Shown here in pieces: positions 4,205-31,527 of a stretch of DNA of 64,000 nt; positions within the stretch are counted from its first letter, which is position 1; the number at the start of each line of letters is the position of its first letter. Made by a program: the position numbers and the translations under genes. This DNA comes from Desulfobacterales bacterium (GTDB taxonomy: Bacteria > Desulfobacterota > Desulfobacteria > Desulfobacterales > JAEINQ01): positions 1-64,000 of the forward strand of contig JAEINQ010000002.1 in NCBI GenBank assembly GCA_016342285.1, given 5' to 3'. The notes under the pieces were generated by a model. It had not been told where the DNA came from and searched no databases. It was given only the letters and a program-made list of their open reading frames with translations.

Positions 4205-4359
4205 TGTGGTAAGATCGGCAATTCCGACCTGTCGGGTCGTAGCTGAAAGCGAAGCCTGAAGGGTTTTAAATTCCGAAAGACAAAATTGGATATTTCACTA
4301 TAAATATGGGTTGCTTATAGCCTGTTTTGGAATTTTAAACGCTCAGTTAGGTGAAAAGG
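4205..4359. promoter_or_regulatory. Shared cis-element copy 2 (same 5' box and palindrome arms as 1773-1846, but the arms are split by about 50 nt and a CGACC..GGTCG hairpin is inserted), directly upstream of pirin
   Basis: TGGTAAGATCGGCAATTCCGA, GGGTTTTAAATTCCGAAA and TTTTGGAATTTTAAACGCTCAG align to copy 1. Confidence 0.5.
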
Positions 4360-4368
4360 AGACAGACC

Positions 4369-5217
4369 ATGGAAAAGAGCAGGCCCATCAAGCGGATATT
4401 GAAAGGCACACCCGTCCTGGAGGGGGCCGGCGTCCATCTTCGTCGCGTTTTCGGGAATTCCGAACTGCCCCTTTTTGATCCGTTCCTCATGTTCGACGAT
4501 TTCCGTTCGGACAGTCCGGAGAAGTATGTCAAAGGATTTCCCTGGCATCCCCATCGGGGCATCGAAACCATCACCTATATCCTCAAAGGCGATGTGGAAC
4601 ACGGCGACAGCATGGGAAACAAGGGGATTATATCAGCAGGGGACGTGCAGTGGATGACGGCCGGCAGCGGCATCGTCCATCAGGAAATGCCGAAAGGTGA
4701 CGCCGCAGGCGCCATGCACGGGTTCCAGTTGTGGGCGAACCTGCCGGCCGGGCAGAAAATGATGGCGCCCCGGTACAACGACATCACGGCAGAGAGCATA
4801 CCGGAAGTGGCGCTTGCCGACGGCGTGCGTATCAAAGTCATCGCCGGGACGGTGGGAAAAACCCAGGGGCCGATGAAAGACATCGTCATCGACCCGGAGT
4901 TCATGGACTGCACCGTGTCCGACGGTGTCACCTACGTTCACCGGACCGAGCCGGATTACACCGCTTTTATCTATGTGACCGGCGGCACCGGCAGGGTCAA
5001 CGGCACCCATGTTGACAATGGCACCCTGGTTCTTTTCGATTCGGGGCCGTCGTTTTCCGTGACCGCCGCAGGCGGCCCGGTCCGGTTTCTGATCCTGACC
5101 GGAAAACCCCTGGGCGAACCCATCGCCTGGCGAGGCCCCATTGTCATGAACACCCAGGCCGAACTGGACGCGGCGTTTGCCGAATACCGGGACGGCACCT
5201 TTATCAAACATCCATGA
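4369..5217 (+). CDS. Pirin family protein (cupin)
   Basis: FPWHPHRGIETITYILKG...H..GDSMG pirin metal-binding motifs; AAGGAG RBS 7 nt upstream of ATG 4369 (track ORF starts with GTG at 4351). Confidence 0.85.
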   Translation: MEKSRPIKRILKGTPVLEGAGVHLRRVFGNSELPLFDPFLMFDDFRSDSPEKYVKGFPWHPHRGIETITYILKGDVEHGDSMGNKGIISAGDVQWMTAGSGIVHQEMPKGDAAGAMHGFQLWANLPAGQKMMAPRYNDITAESIPEVALADGVRIKVIAGTVGKTQGPMKDIVIDPEFMDCTVSDGVTYVHRTEPDYTAFIYVTGGTGRVNGTHVDNGTLVLFDSGPSFSVTAAGGPVRFLILTGKPLGEPIAWRGPIVMNTQAELDAAFAEYRDGTFIKHP

Positions 5218-5229
5218 AAGGAGATCATC

Positions 5230-5841
5230 ATGAAAGTACTGATCGTTTACTACTCGACATATGGACATATTCACACCATGGCCGAAGCGGTGGCCGAAGG
5301 GGTCAATGCCGTGGCCGGTGCCGAAGCAATCCTCCGCCGCGTGCCCGAGACCTTGCCGGCAGACGTTCTGGAAAAAATGGGGGCGGTCGATGCCCAGAAG
5401 GCCCAGTCCCATGTGCCGGTCTGCACCGTGGAGGAGCTGGCCGAAGCCGATGCGGTGATTTTCGGCACCCCGACCCGGTTCGGCAACATGTGCGGCCAGA
5501 TGCGCCAGTTCCTCGACGCCACAGGCGGGCTCTGGGCCAGCGGGGCCCTGGTGGGAAAGGTGGGCAGCGTCTTTGCTTCCACCGCCACCCAGCACGGCGG
5601 CCAGGAGTCGACCATCCTTTCCTTCCACACCACCCTGCTTCACCACGGCTTTGTGGTGGTGGGTCTCCCCTATGCTTTCCAGGGCCAGATGCGCATCGAT
5701 GAGATCACGGGCGGCTCGCCTTACGGTGCCACCACCATTGCCGGCGGATCGGGGGAGCGCATGCCCAGCGAGAATGAACTGGAAGGCGCCCGTTTTCAGG
5801 GCAAGCATGTGGCGGCTATTGCGGCCAAACTGGCTGCATAG
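5230..5841 (+). CDS. wrbA: NAD(P)H:quinone oxidoreductase, WrbA type (flavodoxin-like)
   Basis: [25 protein letters not shown]-terminus and flavodoxin-like fold motifs; AAGGAG RBS; follows pirin by 12 nt (operon). Confidence 0.85.
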
Positions 5842-6320: not shown

Positions 6321-6578
6321 ATGAAAATCGGCATCCATGAGGCAAAAACAAGGCTTTCCAAGCTCATCCCGGCTGTTCTATCCGGCGAGGAGGTCATCAT
6401 CACCAAGTCCGGAAAACCCCTGGTGAAACTGGTTCCTGTAGATGGGCAGGGGGGGGATCGACCCCTTGGCTGTTATGCGGGAAAGATCAAAATTTTTGAA
6501 GACTTGATGGAACCGTTGCCCAAGGAGATGATCGACGATTTCTGGATTCAGAAAGATGACCGTGCGTTATCTTCTTGA
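6321..6578 (+). CDS. Phd/YefM family antitoxin
   Basis: MKIGIHEAKTRLSKLI...KSGKPLVKLVPV; 23-nt overlap with the PIN toxin gene. Confidence 0.8.
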   Translation: MKIGIHEAKTRLSKLIPAVLSGEEVIITKSGKPLVKLVPVDGQGGDRPLGCYAGKIKIFEDLMEPLPKEMIDDFWIQKDDRALSS

Positions 6579-6948
6579 CACCCACGTTTTTCTCTGGATG
6601 GCGGCAGATCCCGACAAGTTGTCTCGCAACGTCAGGAAAATTGTCCTTCAAAAAAATAGCCGCCTCTATCTGAGTGCGGCCAGCGGTTGGGAGATCGCGT
6701 TGCTTCGAAATCTCGGACGCATTGAACTACCGGATGAGCCCCAACGGTTTGTGCCGGAGGCCATGCAGCAGCTTGGCGTGACCCCCATCCCCATCAGTTT
6801 TTCGACGGCCATGGCCGCTGCGTCGCTACCCCTGATCCATAGAGATCCCTTTGACCGCATCATGATCGCTGAAGCGGAAAAGGAAAAAATGACCGTTGTG
6901 ACCAAGGACAAAAAATTTGCCGGATATGGAATTCAACTGTTGTGGTGA
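6556..6948 (+). CDS. vapC: PIN-domain toxin VapC
   Basis: LLDTHVFLW N-terminus with the conserved Asp, PIN acidic residues; overlaps the upstream antitoxin. Confidence 0.8.
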   Translation: MTVRYLLDTHVFLWMAADPDKLSRNVRKIVLQKNSRLYLSAASGWEIALLRNLGRIELPDEPQRFVPEAMQQLGVTPIPISFSTAMAAASLPLIHRDPFDRIMIAEAEKEKMTVVTKDKKFAGYGIQLLW

Positions 6949-6967: not shown

Positions 6968-7768
6968 TTACCCTCGGTCCTGAAAAACCGGGGGACGCTT
7001 TTCGAGGTTGGCCATGACCGCCTCAATCTGGTTCGGCGTTGCGATCAGTTCGCGCTGAAGGGTTTCTTCCAGTAAGAGTCCCTTTTCAGGGCCGCTTCGC
7101 CAGGCTTCTTCCAGCAGCTGCTTTCCCCTTGAAATGGCATCGGGGGATTTGCCGGCAATCACTTTTGCCAGTTTTTCGGCTTCCCCCCTGGGGTCTTCGC
7201 AGATCCGTGTGACCAAGCCCAGTTCAGCCGCTTCGGCCGCCTCGACGATCCGTCCGGTAAAGACCAGTTCCTTGGCCACATCCAGCCGGACCAGGTCACA
7301 CAGGGTCTGGGAGCCGGACATGTCGGGCACCAGCCCCCACTTGATCTCCATGACGGACATGCGCGTATCGGCTGCCGCCAGGCGGATATCGGCGGCCAGG
7401 GCGAGCTGAATCCCTCCGCCAAAGGCGACTCCGTGGAGGGCCGCGATGACCGGCACCGGCACCTGTTTCCAGACCCACGCCACCTGCTGGGCCTTGTTGG
7501 CCGGGTTGTCTTCCGGTCGGTCGAAAAGATCATGGCCGCCAGGGTCGGCACCGAGTTTTTCGAAAATTTCAAAATCCAGCCCTGCGCAGAATCCCTTGCC
7601 GTTTCCGGACAGAACCACGGCCCGGATGGATGGGTCGTTTTTGACCGCTTCGCCCACTTCGAGAATGCGGTAAAACATCTCCAGGTTCAGTGCATTGTAC
7701 TTCTCCGGTCGGTTGAGGGTGACAAAGGCGATGTGGTCCCTGATTTCAAGGGTGACGATCTCAGCCAT
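6968..7768 (-). CDS. Enoyl-CoA hydratase/isomerase (crotonase) family protein
   Basis: VTLNRPEKYNAL, GNGKGFCAGLD oxyanion-hole region, AAL.G.A.GGG.QLALA motif. Confidence 0.8.
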   Translation of the reverse strand: MAEIVTLEIRDHIAFVTLNRPEKYNALNLEMFYRILEVGEAVKNDPSIRAVVLSGNGKGFCAGLDFEIFEKLGADPGGHDLFDRPEDNPANKAQQVAWVWKQVPVPVIAALHGVAFGGGIQLALAADIRLAAADTRMSVMEIKWGLVPDMSGSQTLCDLVRLDVAKELVFTGRIVEAAEAAELGLVTRICEDPRGEAEKLAKVIAGKSPDAISRGKQLLEEAWRSGPEKGLLLEETLQRELIATPNQIEAVMANLEKRPPVFQDRG

Positions 7769-8414
7769 CGGTTCTCCTTTTTAAGATTTTGATGATTTCG
7801 GCGGGATCCGGCCTTTTCGTATAATCGGGGTTGACCTCTGCGTCGAGGATCGTCCCGTTTGGGTCAACAATGAAGCGGCCCGGCATGGGCAGGGTCCAGG
7901 AATCGTTGCCGTTGAACCGTTCCAGGTCGATGCCGAACTTGCTGTACAGTCCCTTCAAGTCCTCTGGCAGGGTGAATACCAGGCCGAATCGGGTTGCGAC
8001 CTCATTTCCCTTATCACCGATGACTCTGAATGTCAGGTTCAATTTCTTCGCGATCTGTTTCGAATATTTTTCAAGCTGCGGTGATATGACTATGATTGAG
8101 GCGCCAAGGGCTTCGATATCGGCAGCAACTTCTTGCAGAGCTTCCAGCTCCAGATTGCAATACCGTCACCAGACACCCCGGTAAAAGCTGATCACCATCG
8201 GCCCCTTGCCGAGCAACTTCGCTGAGCCAATCGAATTTCCGTTGATGTCGGGAAGGGTGAATTCCGGCGCGCGGTCTCCCGTTTTCAGGGCGCGTTCCAT
8301 GATTCCCGAGGAGAGCAGATCTTCCGTGGCCCGGTGCATGACGGTCAGGGCCTCGGGCGGCGCGCTCGATTCGAACGTTCTTCTCATTTCATCCAATTTA
8401 TCTTGTAGTCCCAT
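7761..8414 (-). CDS. Peroxiredoxin-like (AhpC/TSA/thioredoxin-fold) selenoprotein with a U-x-x-C redox motif; track ORFs 8166..8414 and 7761..8042 are one gene joined by an in-frame TGA
   Basis: Minus-strand reading gives ...ISFYRGVW-TGA-RYCNLELEALQEVAAD... with the TGA at + 8166-8168 and the Cys codon at 8157-8159. Both halves are in the same frame (126 nt apart). FYRG.W[C/U]..C is the Prx-like active site. AAGGAG RBS before ATG 8414. Confidence 0.65.
8133..8160 (-). other. Putative bacterial SECIS hairpin 6-33 nt downstream of the in-frame UGA
   Basis: mRNA UUGCAAUCUGGAGCUGGAAGCUCUGCAA: outer stem UUGCA/UGCAA, inner stem GGAGCU/AGCUC, small G-rich apical loop. Confidence 0.35.
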
Positions 8415-8729
8415 TAGGTATCTCCTTTAAGATCGTTGGGGAGCGATAGATCGTGACGATGCCCATTTGGCATCGACGCAAACCCCGTGTTGCTGACCGT
8501 GGAATGTTCTTACTGACGGTACGGATCATTCCTGGCCTGTCAAGTCAAAACCGTTTGGCTTTTGCCATTGCCGATGTAGCGACAGGGTCAGATATCGTTG
8601 GAATTGCAGTTTCGGATTTGCCGGACGAGCGGTTTTGCACAACCTCTGCGATGGCGATCCGTCTCTATTTATTGACAATGGCACGGAAACGGGTCATGAT
8701 GACCTTATTGGCTTGAATGGGAGCGAATT

Positions 8730-8999
8730 ATGATCGAGGAATCTATCAACATTGCCGAGGCGAAAAAGCATTTTTCCGATTTGATCGGACAGGTGGCTTT
8801 TGCCAAAAAGCGGCTTCTCATCACCAAGCGCGGCAAACCCATGGCTCGTTTGGTTCCCGTGGAAGACGCGGAACACCGATTGAACGAGGCTCAAGGGTGG
8901 CTTGAAAACGATGATCCGTTTTTTGATACCATTGAAAACATCGTTTCAGAGCGGAAAAACCATATCCCGAGAGCGCTCTCCGGGCTGAAGAACCCGTGA
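8730..8999 (+). CDS. Phd/YefM family antitoxin (second vapBC-type module)
   Basis: MIEESINIAEAKKHFSDLIGQV...RGKPMARLVPVED; stop overlaps the start of the downstream PIN gene. Confidence 0.8.
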   Translation: MIEESINIAEAKKHFSDLIGQVAFAKKRLLITKRGKPMARLVPVEDAEHRLNEAQGWLENDDPFFDTIENIVSERKNHIPRALSGLKNP

Positions 9000-9415
9000 T
9001 GTATCTGCTCGATACCAATATCCTCAGCGAACTGATTAAAAAGCGCCCCGATCCCCTTTTCATCCAACGGCTTTCACGCCAGCCACCGGAGAACCTATTT
9101 ACATCCAGCATTTGCGTCATGGAACTGCGCATGGGAAGCGCCTTGCGGGATGACTATCCGGTTTTCTGGAAAAGGATCGAGGAACAAATCCTTTCTCGGA
9201 TCAACATCCTGCCCATCGGAGAAGAGGAGGCGAAGGTGGCCGGCGACATATTGGCCACGCTGCGAAAAGCCGGTCAATGGATCGGGATCGAAGATGTACT
9301 CATCGCTGCAACTGCTATATGCAACCGACTTACGGCCGTGACTGCCAATACTGGTCACTTCAGCAGAGTCGATGGATTACACGTGGAAAATTGGTTAGAG
9401 GGCCATCCAGGATGA
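8996..9415 (+). CDS. vapC: PIN-domain toxin VapC (second module)
   Basis: MYLLDTNILSELIK N-terminus, PIN acidic residues; 4-nt overlap with the antitoxin gene. Confidence 0.8.
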   Translation: MMYLLDTNILSELIKKRPDPLFIQRLSRQPPENLFTSSICVMELRMGSALRDDYPVFWKRIEEQILSRINILPIGEEEAKVAGDILATLRKAGQWIGIEDVLIAATAICNRLTAVTANTGHFSRVDGLHVENWLEGHPG

Positions 9416-9521: not shown

Positions 9522-10250
9522 CTATTCAAGCCGGCCGTCGATATCGGACATGGCGGCCATGAAGCGTTTGCGGGCGTCTTGGGCATAAGGGTTGTAGCGG
9601 TTCATGTCCTCGAAGAGCTGCCAGGTGTCGTTTTCCACCACGCCGAGAATGTGCCGAAGCCGCTTGTACCCTTCGGTATCGATGGGCAGGTCTTCGGCCC
9701 CGAATCGGGCCAGGGATCGGCCGATGAAGTGGGTCAGGGCCAGGGTGACGGCGATCTGCCGGTCATGTTCTTCGGGTGAGGTGTCGAACACCTTCAGTCC
9801 CTTGGCCGTAAGATAGGCCAACATATTGTCGAATCGTTTTTCTTCAATGCGGACCCGGCACAGCACAATCTTCCGGCCGGACAGGGAGTCGGCGGCACTG
9901 TCCGGTCCGAACATGGGGTGGGTGGCCAGGATGGAGACATGGTCGGGCAGGGCTTCGGTCATCCATCGGGCCGGCAGGGTTTTGACCGAACAGACATCCA
10001 CCACAACGGTCCCGGGGTTGAGCATGGGGGCGATCCGTTTCAGCGTCGGCTCCATGGCCGAGATGGGCACGCAGAGGATCACCAGCTTCTGGGCGCAGAC
10101 CGCCTCCAGCGAGTCGACTACCGATCCGAGCCGGACGACTTCGTCGGTCTTTCCCGGTGCGGTGTAGACCTTGACCTCAAAATCTTCGGCCAGGTACCTG
10201 GCGGTGAGCTTTCCGAAGCGGCCGAATCCAATGATACCAATCATAGTCAC
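9522..10250 (-). CDS. tyrA: Prephenate/arogenate dehydrogenase
   Basis: N-terminal Rossmann fold IGIIGFGRFG, VVVDVCSVK and HPMFGP motifs typical of TyrA; last gene of the minus-strand aro cluster. Confidence 0.75.
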   Translation of the reverse strand: MTMIGIIGFGRFGKLTARYLAEDFEVKVYTAPGKTDEVVRLGSVVDSLEAVCAQKLVILCVPISAMEPTLKRIAPMLNPGTVVVDVCSVKTLPARWMTEALPDHVSILATHPMFGPDSAADSLSGRKIVLCRVRIEEKRFDNMLAYLTAKGLKVFDTSPEEHDRQIAVTLALTHFIGRSLARFGAEDLPIDTEGYKRLRHILGVVENDTWQLFEDMNRYNPYAQDARKRFMAAMSDIDGRLE

Positions 10251-10263
10251 CTAACTTAACGGC

Positions 10264-10409
10264 TCTGTAAAAAACCCGAACTCTGCGTTACGCGAACCCT
10301 TCGTCATTGCGGCGTACGGCTTGTACAGCCTCATTCCTCAGGATTCGCAAGCCTTGATTGCGGGCTTTTTCCAAAACCGTCTGAAAAAAGAATTTTTTAC
10401 GAGAGTATC
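10264..10409 (+). repeat. Repeat family R, copy 1 (~145 bp), with imperfect terminal inverted repeats CGTAAAAAACCCGAA ... TTCGGGCTTTTTACG-like and an internal GGCTTGTACAGCC hairpin
   Basis: Aligns with 11721-11869 (inverted), 12974-13012 (partial) and 20325-20462. Confidence 0.7.
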
Positions 10410-10455
10410 TTCCTTGAGCCTGTCGCAATTTCGGCAACCGTTCAATCTTGACAGT

Positions 10456-10579
10456 CCCGTAAAAAGTCGAAAACCATTTTTTATCGTCATTCCAGCGCAG
10501 GCGGGAATCCAGTCATTTCAAATGGTTCTGGATGCCTGCCTTCGCAGGCATGACGAGATTTGGGGCTTTTTACGGTTTC
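10456..10579. repeat. Smaller nested inverted-repeat structure (CCCGTAAAAAGTCGAAAACC ... GGGGCTTTTTACGGTTTC) flanking internal GCAGGC..GCCTGC hairpins
   Basis: Shares the CGTAAAAAG / CTTTTTACG terminal motif with repeat family R. Confidence 0.4.
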
Positions 10580-10580
10580 A

Positions 10581-11738
10581 TCAATCTTGGAGGAATTTTC
10601 TTATTCGTTCAAATCCGTCTCCAATCCGGTCTTCGGCCACGGCATAGGATATGCGCACAAAACCCGGTGCACCGAAAGCCTCGCCGGGCACCATGGCCAC
10701 GCCGGTCTTATCAAGTACCCCCATGCAGAAAGCTTCGGCCGTCTCGCCGGTTTTCAAACGTCCGGAGATGTCGGCAAAGAGGTAAAAAGCCCCTTCAGGC
10801 CGCAGGCAGTCGAAGAGGTTCGATGCCAGGCCATAAGCGATGTCCCGCCGCCGGCTCATCCGTGCCAGCAGATTCGGCATCAGGGTCTCTTCGATCTCCA
10901 GGGCGGCCAGGGCACCGTGCTGGACAAAGGTGCAGACATTTCCCGAGGCGTGGCTGAGGATTTTTTCCATGGCACGAGCGACTTCGACCGGCGCCGCCGC
11001 ATAACCGACCCGAAAACCGGTCATGGCGAAGGGTTTGGAAAAACTCCGGGTGACGATGACGCGGTCCCTGGCCCCGGTCCAGTCAAAGGGGCTGACATGG
11101 CGCCCGCCGTCGTAAACAAAGGCGTCATAGGCCTCGTCCGAGAGGAGAAACAGGTCTTTTTCCATGCACAGGGCAACGATGGCGGCCAGTTCGTCTTCGG
11201 TATAGACCGCACCCGTGGGGTTGTTGGGAGAATTGACCAGCACTGCCCGGGTGCGGGGGGTGACCGCCGCAGCCACGGCCCCGGCATCAAGCCGGTGACC
11301 GAGGGAGGCGACCATCACCGGTTCGGCTCCGGCCAGGCGGACCTGTTCGGGAAAACTCACCCAGCATGGCGAGGGGATGATTACCTGGTCCCCGGGGTCG
11401 CAGATGGCCTGGAAGATCAGGTAGAGGGCCTGCTTGGACCCGTTGGTGATGACGATGTTTTCAGCGCTGCCACCCGCAAACCGCCGGGCGATACACCGTC
11501 GCAGTTCAGGCAGTCCGGCCGTGGGGCCGTAGCGGGTGTGTCCCTCGGCCATGGCTTTCTGGGTTGCTTCGATGATGCGGCGTGGTGTGGGGAAATCGGG
11601 CTCGCCCACGGCGAAATTAATCACTTCCCGGCCCTGGCGGCGAAGTTCGGCCATGGCCGGAATGAACCGGGCGGTCCGGGACGGTTCGATTTGGGTCGCA
11701 CGTTTGGATAAATTCATTTTCGATACGCTCGCAATCAT
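10581..11738 (-). CDS. Class I/II pyridoxal-phosphate-dependent aminotransferase (aspartate/aromatic type)
   Basis: Class-I aminotransferase fold blocks (GEPDFPTP, NSPNNPTG, SFSKPFAMTG..R with the PLP lysine context); embedded in the aro/tyrA cluster. True start may be the internal Met (MNLSKR) at 11717. Confidence 0.8.
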   Translation of the reverse strand: MIASVSKMNLSKRATQIEPSRTARFIPAMAELRRQGREVINFAVGEPDFPTPRRIIEATQKAMAEGHTRYGPTAGLPELRRCIARRFAGGSAENIVITNGSKQALYLIFQAICDPGDQVIIPSPCWVSFPEQVRLAGAEPVMVASLGHRLDAGAVAAAVTPRTRAVLVNSPNNPTGAVYTEDELAAIVALCMEKDLFLLSDEAYDAFVYDGGRHVSPFDWTGARDRVIVTRSFSKPFAMTGFRVGYAAAPVEVARAMEKILSHASGNVCTFVQHGALAALEIEETLMPNLLARMSRRRDIAYGLASNLFDCLRPEGAFYLFADISGRLKTGETAEAFCMGVLDKTGVAMVPGEAFGAPGFVRISYAVAEDRIGDGFERIRKFLQD

Positions 11739-11869
11739 TCTATCGACAGACGGTTTCGTAAAAAGCCCGAAATCAAGGCTTGCGAATCCTGAGTAATGAG
11801 GCTGTACAAGCCGTACGCCGCAATGACGAAGGGTTTGCGTAACGCAGAGTTAGGGTTTTTTACGGAACC
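11721..11869 (-). repeat. Repeat family R, copy 2, inverted relative to copy 1, filling the aroC-aminotransferase gap
   Basis: Reverse complement aligns along ~150 nt with 10264-10409. Confidence 0.7.
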
Positions 11870-11871
11870 GG

Positions 11872-12957
11872 TCAGGACCTCATTTTTTGCCTAAGGGCCA
11901 GATCGGCGAAAACCAGGGCGGCCATGGCCTCCACAATGGGCACGGCCCGGGGGACCACGCAGGGATCGTGACGTCCCTTGGCCTCCAGCCGAACCGGCAG
12001 GCCGTTGAAATCGGCGGTTTCCTGGGCCATTCCGATGGTGGCCGGCGGCTTGAAGGCGACACGGAAGATCACCGGTTCGCCGTTGGTGATCCCCCCTTGG
12101 ATGCCGCCGCTGAAGTTGGTGGCGGTGCCGAGCCGTTTGCCCTTGGCAACAAAGGGGTCGTTGTGGCCCGATCCGCGCATGGTGCTGCCGCAGAAACCGC
12201 TTCCGATCTCAAACCCCTTGGTGGCCGGGATTGAGAGCATGGCCTGGGCCAGCATGGCCTCGGCCTTGTCAAAGACCGGTTCTCCCAGGCCCGGTGGAAG
12301 ATTTCGGCAGACACAAGAGACAATTCCCCCCAGCGAGTCCGCGGTGTCCCTGGCTTGCGCGACGGCATGGGTCATTGTTTCGGCCGTTTCCGGGTGAGGG
12401 CACCGGATCGGGGTTTTGTCGACGGCCGGGCGAGACATGGCTTCAGTGTCCGGTTCCGGTGCCTGGACCTCGCCCACAGCGCTGACCCAGGCGACGATTT
12501 CCACGCCCCAGGTGTTGGCCAAAAAGCTTTCGGCCACCGCACCGGCCGCCACCCGGCCGATGGTTTCCCGGGCGCTGGAACGCCCCCCACCACTGGCCGC
12601 CCGAATTCCGTATTTCATCTGATAGGTATAATCGGCGTGAGACGGCCGGGGGATATTGGACATGGTCTTGTAGTCACCGGGACGCTGGTCCCGATTGGCC
12701 ACGCTCATGGCAACCGGTGTTCCCAGGGTCAAACCGTTTTCCACGCCGGAAAGGATGGTGACCCGGTCGGCCTCGTCGCGGTCCGTGGTCAGTTTGCTCT
12801 GGCCGGGGCGCCGGCGGTCGAGCTGTCCTTGGATGTCCGCTTCGCTTAAGGGCATCCGCGGTGGGCAGCCGTCCACCACCACCCCCACGGCCCGACCGTG
12901 GGACTCGCCGAAGGTGGTGATTTTGAACAGGGTACCGAAGGTGCTGGACATGGTCAT
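11872..12957 (-). CDS. aroC: Chorismate synthase
   Basis: FGESHG N-terminus and conserved AroC blocks throughout. Confidence 0.9.
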
Positions 12958-12973
12958 TTCCCTTAATGGTGGC

Positions 12974-13012
12974 GGTTCCGTAAAAATCCCGAACTCTGCG
13001 TTACGGAAATCC
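12974..13012 (+). repeat. Repeat family R, partial copy 3 (5' ~39 nt only) in the aroK-aroC gap
   Basis: GGTTCCGTAAAAATCCCGAACTCTGCGTTACGGAAATCC matches the 5' end of copies 1, 2 and 4. Confidence 0.5.
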
Positions 13013-13086
13013 AGACTTTTTATGAGGTTGTCAAAATTTATAAAAGTGTTTCATAACCACAAAGCCACAAAGATCACAAAGGTTTT

Positions 13087-13731
13087 TTATTCGACATTCC
13101 GGAGTTCGGCCAGAACGAGGTTGCAAACAGTTTCGATGGTCTTCCCGTCCGTGTCCACGGTCAGATCCGCAGCCTCGGCGTACAGGGGCTTGCGCCGGGC
13201 CAGGGTGTCGCGGACCTCTTCTTCGAGCCCCTTGTCGGTCAGGGCCGGCCGAAGTGACCCGGTTTGGGCGTCGGCCCCCATGCGGGATAGAATGGTTTCC
13301 GCCGAAGCCCTCAGCCAGACCGTTGTTCCTGATTGTTTCAGCACGGCGCGGTTTTGAAGATCGATCACCACGCCGCCACCGGTGGCGACGATCTGTCCGT
13401 CCATACCGGCCAGCCGGGCGAGCACCTCTTTCTCCATTTTGCGAAATACCGACCAGCCATCCCGGGCCACGATCCGGGCCACGGTGGCACAGGCGTGTTC
13501 CTCCAGAGCCCGGTCCGCATCGGTAAAAGGCCTTCCCAGGATTTGGGCCAGGGTTTTTCCTACCGACGTCTTACCGGTGCAGCGAAAGCCGATGAGGTAG
13601 AGGTTGGGGGCTGGTTGAATCGGTTTGCCGGGTTGGGTTGGTTTCATTGGTCTTATCGGTTTGCTGGTTTTATGGGATGTCGCTGCTTTTCCATGCCATG
13701 TCACGCCTGTTCGCCAACCAATCAAACCCAT
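13087..13731 (-). CDS. aroK: Shikimate kinase with a Pro-rich N-terminal extension
   Basis: Walker A GFRCTGKTSVGK, shikimate kinase core. N-terminal KPIRPMKPTQPGKPIQP extension may be untranslated if the internal Met (13647) is the true start. Confidence 0.8.
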   Translation of the reverse strand: MGLIGWRTGVTWHGKAATSHKTSKPIRPMKPTQPGKPIQPAPNLYLIGFRCTGKTSVGKTLAQILGRPFTDADRALEEHACATVARIVARDGWSVFRKMEKEVLARLAGMDGQIVATGGGVVIDLQNRAVLKQSGTTVWLRASAETILSRMGADAQTGSLRPALTDKGLEEEVRDTLARRKPLYAEAADLTVDTDGKTIETVCNLVLAELRNVE

Positions 13732-13755
13732 TCAACCAACGCAACCAATCAAACC
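13715..13755. repeat. Two copies of a 14-bp direct repeat (period 27 nt) spanning the aroA stop / aroK start
   Basis: Minus strand reads GGTTTGATTGGTTGcgttggttgaatgGGTTTGATTGGTTG, encoding GLIGCVG-stop in aroA and MGLIGW in aroK. Confidence 0.6.
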
Positions 13756-15009
13756 GCCTTCAAAGACGTCCCAGAAATTGGGAAATGATTTCTCCACGCA
13801 GCCGGGATCGGTGATGATCACGCCGGGCACCTTCAGGCCGGCCACGGCAAAGCTCATGGCAATGCGGTGGTCGTCATAGGTTTGAATTTCAGCGCCGGTG
13901 GGCTTTCCGCCGGTGACGATCAGGTCGTTTTCCGTGCTTCGAGCGTCAATACCCATTCGCCCCAACTCCGCGGTCACGGCACCCAGTCGGTCGCTCTCCT
14001 TGGCGCGCAGGTGGGCCACATTTTCGATGATGGTGGTTCCCCGGGCAAAGGCAGCCACCACGGCCAGGGTCGGCACCATGTCGGGCATGTCGGCCATGTC
14101 CACCGTGATGGCGCAAAGACCCCTCCCGGTTACCGAGATGCCGTCGGTTTCATGGGCTACCGTACAGCCCATTCTTCCCAGGACCTCTGCCAGGCGCACA
14201 TCCCCCTGTCGGGAGTCCGACCGTGTTTGGCTGACCTTCACGGTTGCTCCGGTGATTGCCGCAGCGGCCCAGAAGTAGCCGGCCTGAGAAGCGTCTGGTT
14301 CCACGCGATAACGGCCGCTTCGATAGACCTGGTTGCCGGGAACGACAAACCGGGCATATCCGTCCCGTTCAACGCTGACGCCGAAGCGCTCCAGAATATC
14401 GAGGGTCATGTCCACGTAGGGCCGGGAGACCGGTCCTTCGGTCACGGCAATGTCGAGGCCATTTTTTGTGCACGGGGCCATTAGAAGAAGGGACGATAGG
14501 AACTGGCTGCTCACCGCACATCGGAGGCGCACTGCCTTGCCGGCCACCGGCGTGCCCGTGACGGCCACGGGCGGGCACCCGTTGTTGCGGATGCTTCGGG
14601 CTTCGATCCCGAGCAGGTTCAGGCTGTCGATGAGATCCTGGATGGGTCGCTGCCCCATCCGTTCGGTTCCGGTCAGGGTATAGACCCCTTCTCCCAGGGC
14701 GACCACTCCGGTGAGCAGCCGCATGGAGGTGCCGCTGTTTTCTAAGTAGATCGGGTCCTGGCACGGGGCCAACCGTCCCCTTCGCCCTTCGATATGGATC
14801 CGGTCTTCTTCCCTGCGAATATCAATGCCCATTTTCTCCAGGGCGGAAAGGGTCAGCCGGGTGTCCCGGCTGTTCAAGGGGTTGTGCACCGTGCAGGGTC
14901 CGTTGGACAAGGCCGCTGCGATGAACATCCGGTGGGTATAGCTCTTGGAACCGGGCACGGTCACTTTATAGTTGCGCCCGGCCATATCCATGGGAAGAAT
15001 TCGCTTCAT
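13732..15009 (-). CDS. aroA: 3-phosphoshikimate 1-carboxyvinyltransferase (EPSP synthase)
   Basis: VPGSKSYTHR, LLTGV..LGEG and LRAKESDRL blocks typical of EPSPS. Confidence 0.9.
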   Translation of the reverse strand: MKRILPMDMAGRNYKVTVPGSKSYTHRMFIAAALSNGPCTVHNPLNSRDTRLTLSALEKMGIDIRREEDRIHIEGRRGRLAPCQDPIYLENSGTSMRLLTGVVALGEGVYTLTGTERMGQRPIQDLIDSLNLLGIEARSIRNNGCPPVAVTGTPVAGKAVRLRCAVSSQFLSSLLLMAPCTKNGLDIAVTEGPVSRPYVDMTLDILERFGVSVERDGYARFVVPGNQVYRSGRYRVEPDASQAGYFWAAAAITGATVKVSQTRSDSRQGDVRLAEVLGRMGCTVAHETDGISVTGRGLCAITVDMADMPDMVPTLAVVAAFARGTTIIENVAHLRAKESDRLGAVTAELGRMGIDARSTENDLIVTGGKPTGAEIQTYDDHRIAMSFAVAGLKVPGVIITDPGCVEKSFPNFWDVFEGGLIGCVG

Positions 15010-15040
15010 GATTCAAGTCTTTCCAATACGGTTTCGCGCA

Positions 15041-16069
15041 TCAATCCAGGGACCGGACCGCCTCTTTGAGTTCAGTCAGGGTGATCTTTTCCACCACCGC
15101 CCTGCCGATGCCGTCGAGAAGGACGAAGTGAATGAATTCCCCTTCCCGTTTCTTGTCTTTTCTCATCACTTCGAATAGTTTTTCCGGTTCACATTCCAGC
15201 CGGGTGGGAAGACCCATGGTATCGATGAGATTCTCCATGCGCCCCAACTCTGATGGGGTCAAAAGGCCCCGGCCCATGGACAAGGCCCCGGCGACCACCA
15301 TTCCGATGGCCACGGCCTCGCCGTGGGGGACCCCGGTCATTTTTTCCACGGCGTGCCCGAAGGTGTGGCCGAAATTGAGCTTGCGGCGCTCCCCGGTCTC
15401 CTTTTCGTCGCGGTTGACCACCGCCGATTTGATCATGACCGAGTCGTAGACAAGTTTTTCCACCACTTCGCGTTCCAGTTCCAGCAGGCGGTGGCCGTTT
15501 TCTTCCAGATAGGCGAAGAGGCGTTTGTCGGCGATGGCTGCATGCTTGATGATTTCGGCCGCCCCGGAAAGGATTTCTCGCTGGGGAAGGGTGACGAGCA
15601 GGTCCGGATCGCAGATGACAAATTTGGGTTGGTTGAAGACACCGGCCATGTTCTTGAAGCCGCCCACGTTGACACCGTTCTTCCCGCCCACCGAGGCGTC
15701 CACCTGGGCGAGCAGGGTGGCGGCGACAAATCCGAATGGAACGCCGCGAAGGTAGGTTGATGCTACAAAGCCGGCCACATCGCAGACAATGCCGCCCCCC
15801 ACGGCTACGATAAAGCTTGTGCGGTCCGCTCCCAGGCCCATGAGTTCCTCATAGAGCCGGCCCACGGTTGCCAGGTTTTTTTCCGCCTCGCCCGTGCCCA
15901 TGGTCAGCACCGGGCAGTCGGGGAGAAGGTGCCCGTAAAGACGTTTGATATTATCATCGGTGACCACCACGGTTTTCTCCGTGGGCACGTAGCGGGGCAG
16001 ATCCGCCAGTCGTTCGCCCACCATGACGGTGGTGTCGCCGGTGCTGCCATGAATCTCGGCAATTTGCAT
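15041..16069 (-). CDS. aroB: 3-dehydroquinate synthase
   Basis: GGG.V.D..GF.A Rossmann/metal-binding blocks of DHQ synthase. Confidence 0.9.
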   Translation of the reverse strand: MQIAEIHGSTGDTTVMVGERLADLPRYVPTEKTVVVTDDNIKRLYGHLLPDCPVLTMGTGEAEKNLATVGRLYEELMGLGADRTSFIVAVGGGIVCDVAGFVASTYLRGVPFGFVAATLLAQVDASVGGKNGVNVGGFKNMAGVFNQPKFVICDPDLLVTLPQREILSGAAEIIKHAAIADKRLFAYLEENGHRLLELEREVVEKLVYDSVMIKSAVVNRDEKETGERRKLNFGHTFGHAVEKMTGVPHGEAVAIGMVVAGALSMGRGLLTPSELGRMENLIDTMGLPTRLECEPEKLFEVMRKDKKREGEFIHFVLLDGIGRAVVEKITLTELKEAVRSLD

Positions 16070-16080
16070 GAACCGCTCCT

Positions 16081-17157
16081 TTACCAGGCCGCTGCCGTCG
16101 GGCCTTCGCGTCGGGCCCTGTCCAGTTTTTCATGGGCTCCGAGGATGAGTTTCTCCGTGGTCTCCCAGGAGATGCATTCGTCGGTGATGGAAACGCCGTA
16201 TTTCAGCGCCGACACATCACCGGTATACTTCTGGCTGCCTTCAAAGAGGTTGCTCTCCAGCATCAACCCCACCAGAGCATCGTTACCTGCTATAACCTGA
16301 TCGACGACATTTTTCCAGACAATGGCTTGGCCCTGGTATTTTTTCATGGAATTGGCATGGGAGCAGTCGATGACAATCGCCTCGGGGAGCCCCTTTTCGA
16401 TAAGGTTCAACCGGGTCTGTTCAATACTGATGGGATCGTAGTTGGGCCGCTTTCCCCCGCGCAGCACCACATGGCCCAGTTCGTTTCCCGTGGTTTTGAC
16501 CACGCAGGTCCGGCCCTGCTGGTCGATTCCCAAAAAGCTTTGGGGGGCGCGGGCCGCCACCATGGCGTTGATGGCCGACGCCAGGTTGCCGTCGGTACCG
16601 TTCTTGAAGCCCACGGGCATGGAGAGGCCGCTGGCCATTTCCCGATGGGTCTGGCTTTCGGTGGTGCGGGCGCCAATGGCCGACCAGCTCACCAGATCGT
16701 CCACGTATTGGGGGGTGATGGGCTCGAGCATCTCAGTGGCCGTGGGAACCCCCATGTTAATAATGGCCAGCAAGATGCGACGGGCCTTGTGAAGTCCGGC
16801 CACCATGTCGCAGGTGCCGTCCAGGTTCGGGTCGTTGATCAGCCCTTTCCAGCCGGTGGTGGTCCGCGGTTTTTCGAAGTAGACCCGCATGACGATATAG
16901 AGGGTGTCCGAGACCCGGTCGCGAAGGTCGCGGATCTTTTCGGCGTATTCCAGGGCAGCCTTTTCGTCGTGGATGGAACACGGTCCGACCACCACCAGCT
17001 GCCGGCGGTCTTCCCGGTGAAGAATTTTACGAATGGCCTCGCGGCTGTCGGCGACGGTTTCGTTGGCCGCCGCGGTGATGGGCAGTTCCTGTTTCAGGCT
17101 TATGGGTGTCATGAGTGCCACATACTCCTTGACCCTCAGGTCGGATGTGCGTTTCAT
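16081..17157 (-). CDS. aroG: 3-deoxy-7-phosphoheptulonate (DAHP) synthase, class I-alpha
   Basis: LLVVVGPCSIHD, IVMRVYFEKPRTTTGWKGLINDP, GARTTESQTHRE, FKNGTDG match AroG/F/H-type DAHP synthases almost block for block. Confidence 0.9.
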   Translation of the reverse strand: MKRTSDLRVKEYVALMTPISLKQELPITAAANETVADSREAIRKILHREDRRQLVVVGPCSIHDEKAALEYAEKIRDLRDRVSDTLYIVMRVYFEKPRTTTGWKGLINDPNLDGTCDMVAGLHKARRILLAIINMGVPTATEMLEPITPQYVDDLVSWSAIGARTTESQTHREMASGLSMPVGFKNGTDGNLASAINAMVAARAPQSFLGIDQQGRTCVVKTTGNELGHVVLRGGKRPNYDPISIEQTRLNLIEKGLPEAIVIDCSHANSMKKYQGQAIVWKNVVDQVIAGNDALVGLMLESNLFEGSQKYTGDVSALKYGVSITDECISWETTEKLILGAHEKLDRARREGPTAAAW

Positions 17158-19395: not shown

Positions 19396-20253
19396 TCATT
19401 TGATGGCGCGAACCACTGCAAACATCTCCTCAACGGGGGGGGCAACCCCGGTCCACAACCTGAAACCCTCGGCCCCCTGATAAACCAGCATGCCAATACC
19501 CGTAACGATCTTGCATCCTTTTGCCTCAGCCCGTTTCAGCAGTTCGGTCTTGGCCGGATTGTACACGATGTCGCTGACAATCTGACCTTTTCGGAGCAGT
19601 TCGGTGTCCATGGGCAACCGATCCTCGTCCGGGTGCATCCCGATGCTGGTCGTATTGATCACCACATCGACCTGTTGAAAGGCGGATTTCATCTCCTTCG
19701 GGTCTTTGCCGACCACATGGCAGCAGGGCCGGACCTTGTCATTGATCTCGCCGGCCAGGTCATACGCTTTTTGTTCCGTGCGATTGCTGATAAGGATTTT
19801 TCCCGCCCCTTTGAAAGCCATGGTCATGGCGATAGCCCGAGCGGCGCCACCGCAGCCGACGATGAGGTGGCGCTTTCCCTTGATAGAGATCCTTGCTTCG
19901 GTTTCCAGCGATTGGACAAATCCCTCGCCGTCGGTATTGTACCCCGTTGTCCTGCCGTCTTTGATGGTGACCACATTGACCGCGCCGATGACGGTGGCCA
20001 GTTCATGGATGTGGTCGATGTGTTCCATGATTCTGATTTTATGGGGAACGGTCACGTTGTAGCCGGCAAAATTCATCTTTGAAATGCCGCGGGCCACATC
20101 TTTCAGGTTCTCCGGCACCACTTCGATGGGCAGGTAGAAGAAATTCAGGCCCAGCGTCTGAAAGGCTTTGTTGTGCATGGCCGGTGAAAAACTGTGACCC
20201 AGGGGATTGCCCAGCAGTCCGACCAGTTTGGTGTTTACATCGACGATTGACAT
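19396..20253 (-). CDS. aroE: Shikimate dehydrogenase
   Basis: LLGNPLGHSFSPAMHN, NVTVPHK and GAGGAARAI blocks; start taken at MSIVDV (20253). Confidence 0.85.
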   Translation of the reverse strand: MSIVDVNTKLVGLLGNPLGHSFSPAMHNKAFQTLGLNFFYLPIEVVPENLKDVARGISKMNFAGYNVTVPHKIRIMEHIDHIHELATVIGAVNVVTIKDGRTTGYNTDGEGFVQSLETEARISIKGKRHLIVGCGGAARAIAMTMAFKGAGKILISNRTEQKAYDLAGEINDKVRPCCHVVGKDPKEMKSAFQQVDVVINTTSIGMHPDEDRLPMDTELLRKGQIVSDIVYNPAKTELLKRAEAKGCKIVTGIGMLVYQGAEGFRLWTGVAPPVEEMFAVVRAIK

Positions 20254-20324
20254 ATGGTTGTCCTTTTTGCTGAGAAGGGGGCCGACCCTATCAAGACAAG
20301 ACCTCGGCCAGCACGGTTCCGTAA

Positions 20325-20462
20325 AAAACCCGAAATCTGAGTTACGCGAATCCTTCTTCATTGCGGAGTACTCCTAAGTACGCCTCATTCCTCAGGATTC
20401 GCAAGCCTTGATTTCGAGATTTTTCCAAAACCGTCTGAAAAGCGACTTTTTACGAGCGTATC
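20325..20462 (+). repeat. Repeat family R, copy 4, in the aroD-aroE gap, abutting the aroD stop
   Basis: GGTTCCGTAAAAAACCCGAAATCTGAGTTACGCGAATCC...CTTTTTACGAGCGTATC aligns with copy 1 over its whole length. Confidence 0.7.
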
Positions 20463-21237: not shown

Positions 21238-21589
21238 TTCTCCTCATTTTACATTTTGGGCAGGCCGATCTTGCCGGAACCTGCTTTATGCAGCAATGCA
21301 TATCCCCGACCGCTGATGGTTGCCAGATTTTTTTTCTAATTCAACGCATATGACATAATTGTCAAAAATTCGGCGAAAAGTCGAGGTTTCGTGGAAACCT
21401 GAAAAAAGTTTGAAAACCATAAATCAAATCCTCTCAGCATTTCGTTCCGGTAGATCGAATTATGTTATATTTGCGGATAATTACCCGCCATCTGCCGGGC
21501 CGACTGCCTCCTCGCACCATCGCTTCCGCGCTTTTGTTACATTATTGACATTTTAGGTTTCCATCTTGTCATTTCGAAAGGACATCGCG

Positions 21590-22915: not shown

Positions 22916-23010
22916 TCGAAGGTACCCCGCGGTGGGACTTGCCGGCGGTTTGACGGTTGTCCGGCCACGGGGAATGCGCCCGCTGATGCGGGTTCGATAC
23001 GCAGTAGGAA

Positions 23011-23238: not shown

Positions 23239-23253
23239 CGTGTACCTTCATGA

Positions 23254-23610
<357 letters not shown>

Positions 23611-23638
23611 ACCGGGCTGCCGGAGACAACATGGGAAA

Positions 23639-23668
23639 GGCTGCGACCAATCGTCGCAGCCTTTTTTT
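23639..23668 (+). terminator. Rho-independent terminator after glnK1
   Basis: GGCTGCGAC-CAA-TCGTCGCAGCC stem-loop followed by T7. Confidence 0.8.
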
Positions 23669-23721
23669 GCGTCTATACCATTTGTCAGAGAAACGTTCCG
23701 ATGGCAACAAGGGGCCGCATC

Positions 23722-31143: not shown

Positions 31144-31527
<384 letters not shown>

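What the first reader, a model, noticed from the sequence alone, without database searches (positions are those of the whole stretch)
7761..8414. Peroxiredoxin-like selenoprotein: in-frame UGA (Sec) in a U-x-x-C active site splits the gene into two track ORFs
Track ORFs 8166..8414 and 7761..8042 are in the same frame and separated only by TGA at 8166-8168. Read through, the product is ...GPMVISFYRGVW-U-RYCNLELEALQEVAADIEALGASIIVISPQLEKYSKQIAKKLNLTFRV..., the canonical thioredoxin-fold / AhpC-TSA FYRG.WC..C site with the first Cys replaced by Sec. A stem-loop (UUGCA-AUCUG-GGAGCU-GGA-AGCUC-UGCAA) starts 6 nt after the UGA, where a bacterial SECIS element is expected. A Prx-like thiol:disulfide oxidoreductase with UxxC fits a selenoprotein-rich delta-proteobacterial lineage. 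The gene sits 8 nt upstream of a crotonase (shared operon).
Basis: partly seen in the sequence, partly recalled or inferred. Interest (0 to 1): 0.65.

Follow-up and report, generated by a model that had tools for sequence, protein, structure and literature searches.

The report
Peroxiredoxin-like selenoprotein gene, mis-annotated

Summary
One minus-strand reading frame runs from ATG 8414 to the stop at 7761, with a single in-frame TGA at 8168-8166. Read through, it gives a 217-residue AhpC/TSA-fold protein with the motif W-U-R-Y-C.

Comparative evidence supports selenocysteine:
- In 97 homologous loci the aligned codon is TGA in 68, TGC or TGT in 28, TAA in 1, and never TGG.
- Protein conservation is as strong after the TGA as before it.
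- A 7-bp hairpin with a GGA loop lies 20 nt after the UGA (8152-8136). It sits in a fixed register in 61 distinct Sec-type sequences and is lost in Cys-type sequences.
- It meets the published bacterial SECIS criteria.

Sec83 aligns with the conserved Thr of true peroxiredoxins, and Cys86 aligns with their peroxidatic Cys. The chemistry is therefore more likely thioredoxin-like (a U-x-x-C selenenylsulfide couple) than peroxidase-like.

[quoted passage not shown] A listed marine member is 42% identical.

Not shown here: Sec machinery in this genome (none in the window) and actual Se incorporation. The crotonase gene overlaps by 8 nt, but this pairing is not conserved elsewhere. Interest is low.

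The parts
7761..8414 (-). Complete coding sequence of the Prx-like selenoprotein: 217 codons plus the stop TGA at 7763-7761.
   Evidence: Searches give the frame. One search gives Pfam AhpC-TSA 3.7e-26 over residues 46-189, spanning the TGA.
8422..8427 (-). Shine-Dalgarno-like AAGGAG, 7 nt before the ATG at 8414.
   Evidence: Read directly from the sequence.
8166..8168 (-). In-frame TGA, codon 83, the predicted selenocysteine codon.
   Evidence: The aligned codon is TGA in 68, TGC/TGT in 28, TAA in 1 and TGG in 0 of 97 homologous loci. TGA is otherwise a normal stop in 12 of 25 confident genes of the window.
8157..8168 (-). Redox motif U83-R84-Y85-C86. Most homologs have U/C-P-Y-C.
   Evidence: Alignments. 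Cys86 is invariant. A profile alignment to BCP/PrxQ structures puts U83 on the Prx Thr and C86 on the Prx peroxidatic Cys.
8136..8152 (-). Conserved SECIS-like hairpin UGGAGCU-GGA-AGCUCUG: 7 bp including 2 G-U pairs, loop GGA at 8145-8143, with 20 nt between the UGA and the loop.
   Evidence: Across 61 distinct Sec-type sequences the inner 5 pairs are 98% paired. Pair 17-33 occurs as UA 27, UG 14 and CG 11, and 0 of 500 shuffles reach the covariation score. Cys-type sequences are 54% paired. The synonymous-recoding z is -1.42 for Sec forms and -0.09 for Cys forms. The hairpin alone folds at -6.5 kcal/mol, z -3.7.
8133..8160 (-). It can form in this sequence but is not conserved.
   Evidence: It is the minimum-energy fold of the window sequence. 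In the family, pairs 9-36 and 12-33 are unpaired in 27 and 35 of 61 sequences, and covariation is not above shuffles.
6968..7768 (-). Downstream enoyl-CoA hydratase/isomerase (crotonase) gene. Its ATG (7768-7766) overlaps the selenoprotein stop by 8 nt. It is context, not shown to be part of the system.
   Evidence: Pfam ECH_1 1.7e-44. The overlap is shown. It is not a conserved neighbour in the homolog loci.

Best explanation
The region 7761-8414 (minus strand) is a single gene for a cytoplasmic, peroxiredoxin-fold thiol:disulfide oxidoreductase in which codon 83 (UGA) is decoded as selenocysteine.

Inferred decoding mechanism: a hairpin inside the coding sequence (8152-8136, loop GGA, 20 nt after the UGA) acts as the bacterial SECIS. 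It would recruit SelB.GTP.Sec-tRNA(Sec) to the ribosome when the UGA is in the A site, so translation continues to the true stop at 7761.

Inferred chemistry: the product carries a U-R-Y-C motif at the start of the first helix of the thioredoxin fold.
- Sec83 sits where thioredoxins, ResA and DsbA have their attacking N-terminal Cys, and where true peroxiredoxins have Thr.
- Sec83 is therefore the likely nucleophile, and invariant Cys86 resolves it into a selenenylsulfide.
- A cellular thiol system would then re-reduce the selenenylsulfide.

Shown here: the single frame, the fold, the Sec/Cys codon pairing, purifying selection past the UGA, and a Sec-specific conserved hairpin.

Inferred only: Sec insertion in vivo, the reaction mechanism, and the substrate.
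For: 1. One frame with a good ribosome-binding site. The fold domain spans the TGA.
2. In 97 homologous loci from genomes and metagenomes the aligned codon is TGA 68, TGC/TGT 28, TAA 1, TGG 0. TGA forms occur in MAGs labelled Nitrospirae, Desulfobacterales, Geobacterales, Planctomycetota, Chloracidobacterium, Rickettsiales and Pyrinomonadaceae.
3. TGA is a normal stop in 12 of 25 confident genes of this window, so the code is not reassigned.
4. Non-synonymous divergence after the TGA (pN 0.13-0.16) is lower than before it (0.20-0.25), while synonymous sites are near saturation.
5. The hairpin sits in a fixed register in 61 distinct Sec sequences. The inner 5 pairs are 98% paired and one pair shows compensatory changes (UA/UG/CG). 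The Ala codon in the 3' arm has U at its third position (GCU) in all 61 aligned Sec forms. In Cys forms that position pairs as A-U in only 4 of 28, because the codon is mostly GCG or GCC.
6. Sec forms fold better than their own synonymous recodings (mean z -1.42). Cys forms do not (-0.09). MFE is -11.3 versus -8.7 kcal/mol, p = 4.6e-4.
7. The window hairpin meets all four published bSECIS criteria (loop 3-9 nt, stem 4-16 bp, G in the first two loop positions, 16-37 nt spacing, MFE <= -7.5; PMC13188914 Fig. 2). It has loop GGA, 7 bp, 20 nt spacing and -8.8 kcal/mol.
8. The profile alignment to BCP/PrxQ structures places U83 on the Prx Thr and C86 on the Prx Cp. It aligns with both Cys of the ResA CxxC motif.
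9. A high-confidence model of a Cys homolog (pLDDT 96.5) matches BCP/PrxQ/AhpE and ResA structures.
10. The family is catalogued as a predicted selenoprotein, and a listed member is 42% identical over 147 residues.
Against: - No selA, selB, selD or tRNA-Sec gene was found in the 64-kb window. The rest of the genome could not be reached.
- No other selenoprotein gene was seen in the window.
- The window hairpin taken alone is not significantly more stable than shuffles at 41-66 nt. Its synonymous-recoding test is weak on its own (z -1.08, p 0.115).
- No Rfam family matches.
- The hairpin's arms encode conserved residues (E-L-E-A-L), so part of its conservation is protein constraint.
- No member of this family has been shown experimentally to contain Se. 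The reviews list it as 'predicted with high confidence'.
Confidence: 0.88

Rival explanations
1. The protein is a selenoprotein, but it works as a peroxidase like a true peroxiredoxin. Cys86, the residue aligned with the peroxidatic Cys, attacks the peroxide, and Sec83 acts as the resolving partner. Alternatively Sec83 itself reduces peroxides, GPx-style.
For: The fold and best structural matches are BCP/PrxQ/AhpE peroxiredoxins. Cys86 aligns exactly with Prx Cp. An invariant Arg (R180, 'PGRF') lies near the place of the Prx catalytic Arg.
Against: The Prx signature P-x-x-x-T-x-x-C is not kept: Pro is Arg79 and Thr is Sec83. In Sec-containing true Prx the Sec replaces Cp (TxxU; PMC1088965), whereas here it occupies the thioredoxin-type attacking position. 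The R180 alignment to the Prx Arg is offset by two residues.
Confidence: 0.2
2. The gene is a pseudogene, or two separate genes, and the TGA simply terminates translation. This is how the public record treats it, annotating only a 130-residue C-terminal fragment.
For: NCBI annotates only a 130-aa 'redoxin domain-containing protein' (P0004). Sec machinery is not demonstrated for this genome. One homolog (L005) carries TAA at the site.
Against: The TGA is conserved at exactly this codon in 68 loci from several phyla. It aligns with a catalytic Cys and is never TGG. Purifying selection continues after it. The fragment has no canonical start or ribosome-binding site, since P0004 starts at a CTG inside the hairpin, and it would lack the active site and half the fold. 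A Sec-specific hairpin follows the TGA.
Confidence: 0.04
3. The UGA is read through or recoded as a standard amino acid (Trp, Cys or Gly) without selenocysteine. JGI gene calls imply this by writing W at the position.
For: JGI predictions P0001-3, 5 and 6 show 'WW' at the site.
Against: The underlying codon in P0001 is TGA, not TGG. No locus has TGG. TGA is the commonest stop codon in the window's confident genes. The alternative residue in homologs is always Cys. A hairpin fitting the bSECIS model is conserved only with TGA.
Confidence: 0.05

Closest known systems
Prx-like thiol:disulfide oxidoreductase selenoprotein family (pfam00578, UxxC/UxxU; 'Prx-like 1' in the GOS selenoproteome). Sources: Zhang et al. 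2006 (PMC1794560), Zhang & Gladyshev 2008 (PMC2398784), and the reviews PMC9312934 and PMC13188914, which credit the original description to their reference 12.
   Same: It has the same Pfam domain, the same U-x-x-C motif at the same place, a Sec/Cys pairing with abundant Cys homologs, and a bacterial SECIS right after the UGA. It occurs in Deltaproteobacteria: the literature lists Desulfotalea, Geobacter and Syntrophus, and my loci L015 and L008 come from Desulfotalea and Geobacterales MAGs. A GOS 'Prx-like 1' read (JCVI_READ_1095522287784...FFRGKWUPYCRLQLEALQ...) is 42% identical over 147 residues.
   Different: Nothing essential differs. The window protein has U-R-Y-C where nearly all relatives have U-P-Y-C. 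I could not retrieve the reviews' representative sequence (WP_010940744.1), so I do not know whether it belongs to this exact subfamily. 'Prx-like 1' is a broad grouping that also contains shorter proteins.
True peroxiredoxins of the BCP/PrxQ and AhpE type, and the Sec-containing Prx (TxxU)
   Same: They share the thioredoxin/AhpC-TSA fold. They are the best structural matches (TM 0.85-0.88 normalised to the target). Cys86 aligns with the peroxidatic Cys.
   Different: The Prx motif PxxxTxxC reads RxxxUxxC here. Sec is at the Thr position, not the Cp position. The protein has an extra N-terminal two-helix extension (residues ~3-36) and a helical insertion (~150-170). The NCBIfam PrxU model scores 29 bits against a cut-off of 270.
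ResA/TlpA-type CxxC thiol-disulfide oxidoreductases
   Same: Both Cys of the W-C-x-x-C motif align with U83 and C86. The fold is the same.
   Different: ResA and TlpA are membrane-anchored and extracytoplasmic. This protein has a hydrophilic helical N-terminus with no signal or anchor, read from the sequence. The NCBIfam ResA model scores 49.7 bits against a cut-off of 170.
SelL-related redox proteins (NCBIfam NF040769)
   Same: They are also Prx-like thioredoxin-fold proteins with a Sec-containing dithiol-type motif.
   Different: The score is 47 bits against a cut-off of 120, so this protein is not a member.

Membership tests
Prx-like thiol:disulfide oxidoreductase selenoproteins (pfam00578, UxxC) | AhpC-TSA (PF00578) domain | tested here: met
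   PF00578 at E 3.7e-26 and 91.9 bits (cut-off 26) over residues 46-189, spanning the TGA.
Prx-like thiol:disulfide oxidoreductase selenoproteins (pfam00578, UxxC) | In-frame UGA in a U-x-x-C motif that aligns with the first Cys of CxxC in Cys homologs | tested here: met
   The motif is W-U-R-Y-C. The aligned codon is TGA in 68 and TGC/TGT in 28 of 97 loci, never TGG.
Prx-like thiol:disulfide oxidoreductase selenoproteins (pfam00578, UxxC) | [quoted passage not shown] | tested here: met
   Loop GGA, 7-bp stem, 20 nt spacing, -8.8 kcal/mol. The hairpin is conserved and covarying in Sec forms only.
Prx-like thiol:disulfide oxidoreductase selenoproteins (pfam00578, UxxC) | Sequence homology to a listed member | tested here: met
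   42% identity and E 7e-47 to GOS 'Prx-like 1' read JCVI_READ_1095522287784.
Prx-like thiol:disulfide oxidoreductase selenoproteins (pfam00578, UxxC) | Host genome encodes the Sec machinery (selA, selB, selC, selD) | not testable with these tools
   None is present in the 64-kb window. The window's proteins are not indexed, so the flanks could not be fetched.
Prx-like thiol:disulfide oxidoreductase selenoproteins (pfam00578, UxxC) | Selenium actually incorporated at the UGA | not testable with these tools
   This needs 75Se labelling or mass spectrometry. The reviews list the family as predicted, not verified.
Peroxiredoxin (BCP/PrxQ type) | Active-site signature P-x-x-x-T-x-x-C with the peroxidatic Cys | tested here: not met
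   Aligned to FYPAAFTQVC of 2ywn, the window has FYRGVWURYC. Pro is Arg, Thr is Sec, and Cp is kept as Cys86.
Peroxiredoxin (BCP/PrxQ type) | Conserved catalytic Arg | tested here: inconclusive
   R180 is invariant, but it aligns two residues away from the Prx Arg.
Peroxiredoxin (BCP/PrxQ type) | Prx/thioredoxin fold | tested here: met
   The AF2 model of Cys homolog P0009 has pLDDT 96.5. Top PDB matches are Bcp4, BcpB, PrxQ and AhpE, with E 1e-14 to 1e-11.
NCBIfam selenoprotein models (PrxU NF040737, SelL_rel_redox NF040769, WAxxUGC_long NF041054) | Score above the curated cut-off | tested here: not met
   Scores are 29.3 against 270, 47.2 against 120, and 24.1 against 300. No NCBIfam model covers this subfamily. 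I infer that this may be why the public record carries a truncated protein.

The most novel reading that the evidence does not exclude
The selenoprotein is a dedicated redox partner of the crotonase-family enzyme whose gene it overlaps by 8 nt, which would allow translational coupling. This would parallel the DsbA-like/crotonase fusion selenoproteins listed in the 2026 review (PMC13188914, Table 1). It would link a thioredoxin-fold Sec protein to acyl-CoA metabolism.
Probability: 0.05. Interest if true: 0.4.

Novelty: new member of a known kind. Interest (0 to 1): 0.15.

Why it matters
The main value is for annotation. The public record carries only a 130-residue fragment that starts inside the SECIS hairpin. 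JGI gene calls for relatives write Trp at the Sec position. No NCBIfam model reaches its cut-off for this subfamily.

In my sample of 97 loci, which is biased toward relatives of the window protein, about 70% use TGA. A curated model for this subfamily might therefore correct many truncated or mistranslated entries.

Biologically, the gene adds one more selenoprotein to a Desulfobacterales MAG, a lineage already known to be rich in them. The data set also gives a clean illustration of how a coding-region SECIS constrains synonymous sites, and even the encoded residue (Glu in the loop codon of Sec forms, Gln in Cys forms). None of this is new in kind.

Tried and rejected
- Rfam found nothing relevant at gathering threshold on the whole window, or at E <= 10 on 8080-8200.
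- Single-sequence shuffling of the stem-loop was not significant at 41 or 66 nt, so I moved to comparative tests.
I rejected it as a conserved part of the element.
- I looked for Sec machinery and other selenoprotein genes in the window. There is no tRNA at all. NCBIfam and Pfam scans of 30 proteins, including those of 300 residues or more apart from the 1091-residue ORF at 47306-50578 and three others, gave no SelA, SelB or SelD. A scan for same-frame ORF pairs split by TGA gave only this gene as a credible case.
- I tried to reach the rest of the contig through the look-up of encoding contigs with P0004 and with the crotonase. Neither is on record.
- I looked for conserved gene neighbours. 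The crotonase appears near only one of the homolog loci, weakly and on the other strand. No neighbour recurs in Sec-type loci beyond an OsmC-like ORF in 7 of them.
- A sigma-70 promoter and terminator scan around the gene found nothing on the minus strand.
I modelled the Cys homolog P0009 instead.
- I could not open the paper that the reviews cite for this family (reference 12, from memory Kryukov & Gladyshev 2004) by DOI or by a guessed PMC id.
Full report
**Observation**

On the minus strand, an ATG at 8414-8412 is preceded by AAGGAG at 8427-8422. It opens a frame that runs to TGA 7763-7761. The only internal stop is TGA at 8168-8166, codon 83. The two listed ORFs (8166..8414 and 7761..8042) are therefore one frame interrupted once. 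The 41 codons between 8165 and 8043 are open; the ORF list merely starts the second piece at its first TTG.

With Cys substituted at the stop, the 217-residue product matches Pfam AhpC-TSA (3.7e-26, residues 46-189) and Redoxin (7.5e-16). Both matches span the TGA.

The stop of this gene and the ATG of the next gene, a crotonase (Pfam ECH_1 1.7e-44), overlap by 8 nt (ATGGCTGA).

**Is the TGA a sense codon?**

I collected homologous DNA from one genome per species (23 loci) and from metagenomes (80 loci). I then read the codon aligned with 8168-8166. Among the 97 loci where the motif could be located, it is TGA in 68, TGC or TGT in 28, TAA in one (L005) and never TGG. The TGA forms come from MAGs labelled Nitrospirae, Desulfobacterales, Geobacterales, Planctomycetota, Chloracidobacterium, Rickettsiales and Pyrinomonadaceae. 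The Cys forms in the genome set come from Sphingomonas and Serratia.

The closest full-length proteins in the protein database (P0001-3, 5, 6; 57-73% identical) show 'WW' at the site. The DNA behind P0001 has TGA there, so the gene caller read TGA as Trp.

The only database entry matching the window itself is P0004, a 130-residue 'redoxin domain-containing protein' from a Desulfobacterales MAG. It begins at the CTG eight codons after the TGA, that is, inside the hairpin.

TGA is not reassigned in this genome. It ends 12 of 25 confidently identified genes in the window, including this one.

Selection continues past the TGA. Against L001, L002 and L003, the proportion of non-synonymous differences is 0.13-0.16 for codons 84-211 and 0.20-0.25 for codons 1-82. 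Synonymous sites are near saturation, with pS 0.56-0.91. A pseudogene or two independent genes would not show this.

**The SECIS**

Taken alone it is unremarkable: z is -0.46 for 41 nt and -1.16 for 66 nt against dinucleotide shuffles. Only the 17-nt core stands out, at -6.5 kcal/mol and z -3.7.

The comparative picture is decisive. All sequences align without gaps from the UGA onward. In 61 distinct Sec-type sequences:
- A hairpin NNGAGCU-GGN-RGCUCNN sits in a fixed register with its loop 20 nt after the UGA.
- The inner five pairs are paired in 98% of cells.
- The next two pairs extend it. Pair 18-32 is G-U in 44 and A-U in 15. Pair 17-33 is U-A in 27, U-G in 14 and C-G in 11, a compensatory series.
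- No shuffle out of 500 reaches the observed covariation score or percentage paired, and slid registers drop to 36-50% paired.

In 28 Cys-type sequences the same columns are only 54% paired and no better than slid registers. The clearest single signal is synonymous. The Ala codon in the 3' arm is GCU in all 61 aligned Sec forms, because its U pairs with the A of GAG. It is mostly GCG or GCC in Cys forms, where the A-U pair is kept in only 4 of 28.

Three further tests agree:
- Recoding each gene synonymously with its own codon usage shows Sec forms fold better than expected (mean z -1.42; 31% individually at p <= 0.05). Cys forms do not (mean z -0.09; 4%).
- Raw MFEs differ, -11.3 against -8.7 kcal/mol with p = 4.6e-4, even though the Cys forms are richer in G+C.
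- The loop codon is Glu (GAA or GAG, giving loop GGA) in most Sec forms and Gln (CAG, loop GCA) in most Cys forms. The RNA element therefore appears to constrain the protein.

The window hairpin (8152-8136) meets the published bacterial SECIS model: loop 3-9 nt, stem 4-16 bp, G in the first two loop positions, 16-37 nt from the UGA, and MFE <= -7.5 kcal/mol (PMC13188914 Fig. 2). It has loop GGA, 7 bp, 20 nt spacing and -8.8 kcal/mol. Rfam has no matching family.

**What the protein is and how it probably works**

A profile of the family aligned to solved BCP/PrxQ peroxiredoxins puts FYRGVW-U-RY-C on FYPAAF-T-QV-C (2ywn). Sec83 falls on the conserved Prx Thr and Cys86 on the peroxidatic Cys, and the Prx Pro is replaced by an invariant Arg. 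Against ResA, U83 and C86 align with the two Cys of W-C-x-x-C.

An AlphaFold model of a Cys homolog (P0009, 54% identical, pLDDT 96.5) shows a thioredoxin/Prx core. It also has an N-terminal pair of helices (residues 3-36) and a helical insertion (about 152-169). Its best PDB matches are Bcp4, BcpB, PrxQ, AhpE and ResA at 16-28% identity, so no close relative has been solved. The N-terminus is hydrophilic with no signal peptide or anchor, read from the sequence, so the protein is probably cytoplasmic.

In Sec-containing true peroxiredoxins the Sec replaces the peroxidatic Cys (TxxU; PMC1088965). Sec generally marks the most reactive residue. Its position here, at the thioredoxin-type attacking site, points to thiol:disulfide exchange through a Sec83-Cys86 selenenylsulfide. 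This is inference. A peroxidase role remains possible, at about 0.2.

**Context**

The selenoprotein gene and the crotonase gene form a two-gene minus-strand unit. It is bracketed by two Phd/YefM-PIN toxin-antitoxin pairs on the plus strand (6321-6948 and 8730-9415). The crotonase is not a neighbour in the homolog loci, and no other neighbour is broadly conserved. I therefore draw no functional link from the overlap.

The window holds no tRNA. NCBIfam and Pfam scans of 30 of its proteins gave no SelA, SelB or SelD, and there is no second credible TGA-interrupted gene. The rest of the genome could not be reached. Sec machinery in this organism therefore remains the main untested point.

**Comparison with what is known**

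A 'Prx-like' selenoprotein family with a thioredoxin-like UxxC motif in place of TxxU has been reported several times:
- In the Sargasso Sea selenoproteome (PMC1088965).
- In bacterial genomes including Desulfotalea psychrophila, Geobacter species and Syntrophus aciditrophicus (PMC1794560).
- As 'Prx-like 1' (pfam00578, UxxC; 225 Sec and 2,740 Cys sequences) in the GOS data (PMC2398784).

Reviews from 2022 and 2026 define the subfamily by domain plus motif (pfam00578, UxxC/UxxU) and list it as predicted with high confidence. The GOS supplement lists, under 'Prx-like 1', a read ...FFRGKWUPYCRLQLEALQ...WTLPVPATYIV...DADYTVRMEPEE... It is 42% identical to the window protein over 147 residues, E 7e-47.

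The window gene therefore meets every testable membership criterion. It does not meet the Prx active-site signature, nor any NCBIfam selenoprotein model cut-off. I suspect the latter explains the truncated public annotation, but I did not test this.

**Side results**

A neighbour-joining tree of 95 family members, with Fitch parsimony, infers Sec as the root state. One large Cys clade and two single Cys lineages are nested among Sec forms, giving three changes. The sample is biased toward relatives of the window protein and the method is crude, so this is only suggestive. L033 has TGC but an intact Sec-type hairpin, which looks like a recent Sec-to-Cys change. L005 has TAA and a damaged hairpin, which is either decay or an error.

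**Verdict**

The thing is real, and it is very probably a selenoprotein gene (about 0.88). It belongs to a long-known predicted family, so it is a new, mis-annotated member of a known kind, of low interest beyond annotation.

Noticed in passing
L005:3247-3249 (QZLA01000333.1, Desulfobacteraceae MAG 'Madre2'): This homolog has TAA instead of TGA at the Sec codon, and a mismatch in the hairpin (GGAGCUGGAAACUC). It is either a decaying pseudogene or a sequencing or assembly error. It is the only such case among 97 loci.
   Followed up: partly
L033:1747-1794 (PVMS01133614.1): This Cys-type homolog (TGC, 68% identical to the window protein) still carries an intact Sec-type hairpin (GGAGCU-GGA-AGCUUUGC) and the Sec-type 'ELEAL' residues. 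It looks like a recent Sec-to-Cys replacement with a fossil SECIS.
   Followed up: partly
L104:58-741 (JGI Ga0568866_0617184), also proteins P0001-3, P0005, P0006, P0008, P0014, P0017, P0020: JGI gene calls for Sec-type relatives print Trp at the Sec position ('VWWPYC'). For P0001 I verified that the underlying codon is TGA. These database proteins carry a wrong residue in the active site.
   Followed up: partly
window 8157-8168 (-): The window protein has U-R-Y-C, whereas nearly all other Sec and Cys forms have U/C-P-Y-C. From memory, CPYC is the classical glutaredoxin dipeptide. The change in the x-x dipeptide may shift the redox potential.
   Followed up: no
window 6321-6948 (+) and 8730-9415 (+): Two Phd/YefM antitoxin plus PIN-domain toxin pairs bracket the selenoprotein-crotonase gene pair on the opposite strand. 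This might mark a small inserted or mobile segment.
   Followed up: no
window 9522-17157 (-) and 19396-20361 (-): An aromatic amino-acid biosynthesis cluster: prephenate dehydrogenase, aminotransferase, aroC, shikimate kinase, aroA, aroB and DAHP synthase, with aroE nearby.
   Followed up: partly
window 21566-38265: A nitrogen-assimilation region with three ammonium transporter genes, each next to a P-II-like gene (P-II judged from sequence only, not scanned), plus glnA and glnD. A REP-associated tyrosine transposase-like gene lies at 23722-24696.
   Followed up: partly
window 43077-45920 (+): A large FAD-oxidase (GlcD-like)/GlpC-like Fe-S oxidoreductase fusion. GlpC-type Fe-S oxidoreductases are a known selenoprotein family in Deltaproteobacteria, but this copy reads through without any in-frame TGA.
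   Followed up: no
window 4351-5841 (+): A pirin gene is immediately followed by a WrbA-like flavodoxin/FMN-reductase gene. These are redox-related genes about 2.5 kb from the selenoprotein gene. No link was tested.
   Followed up: no
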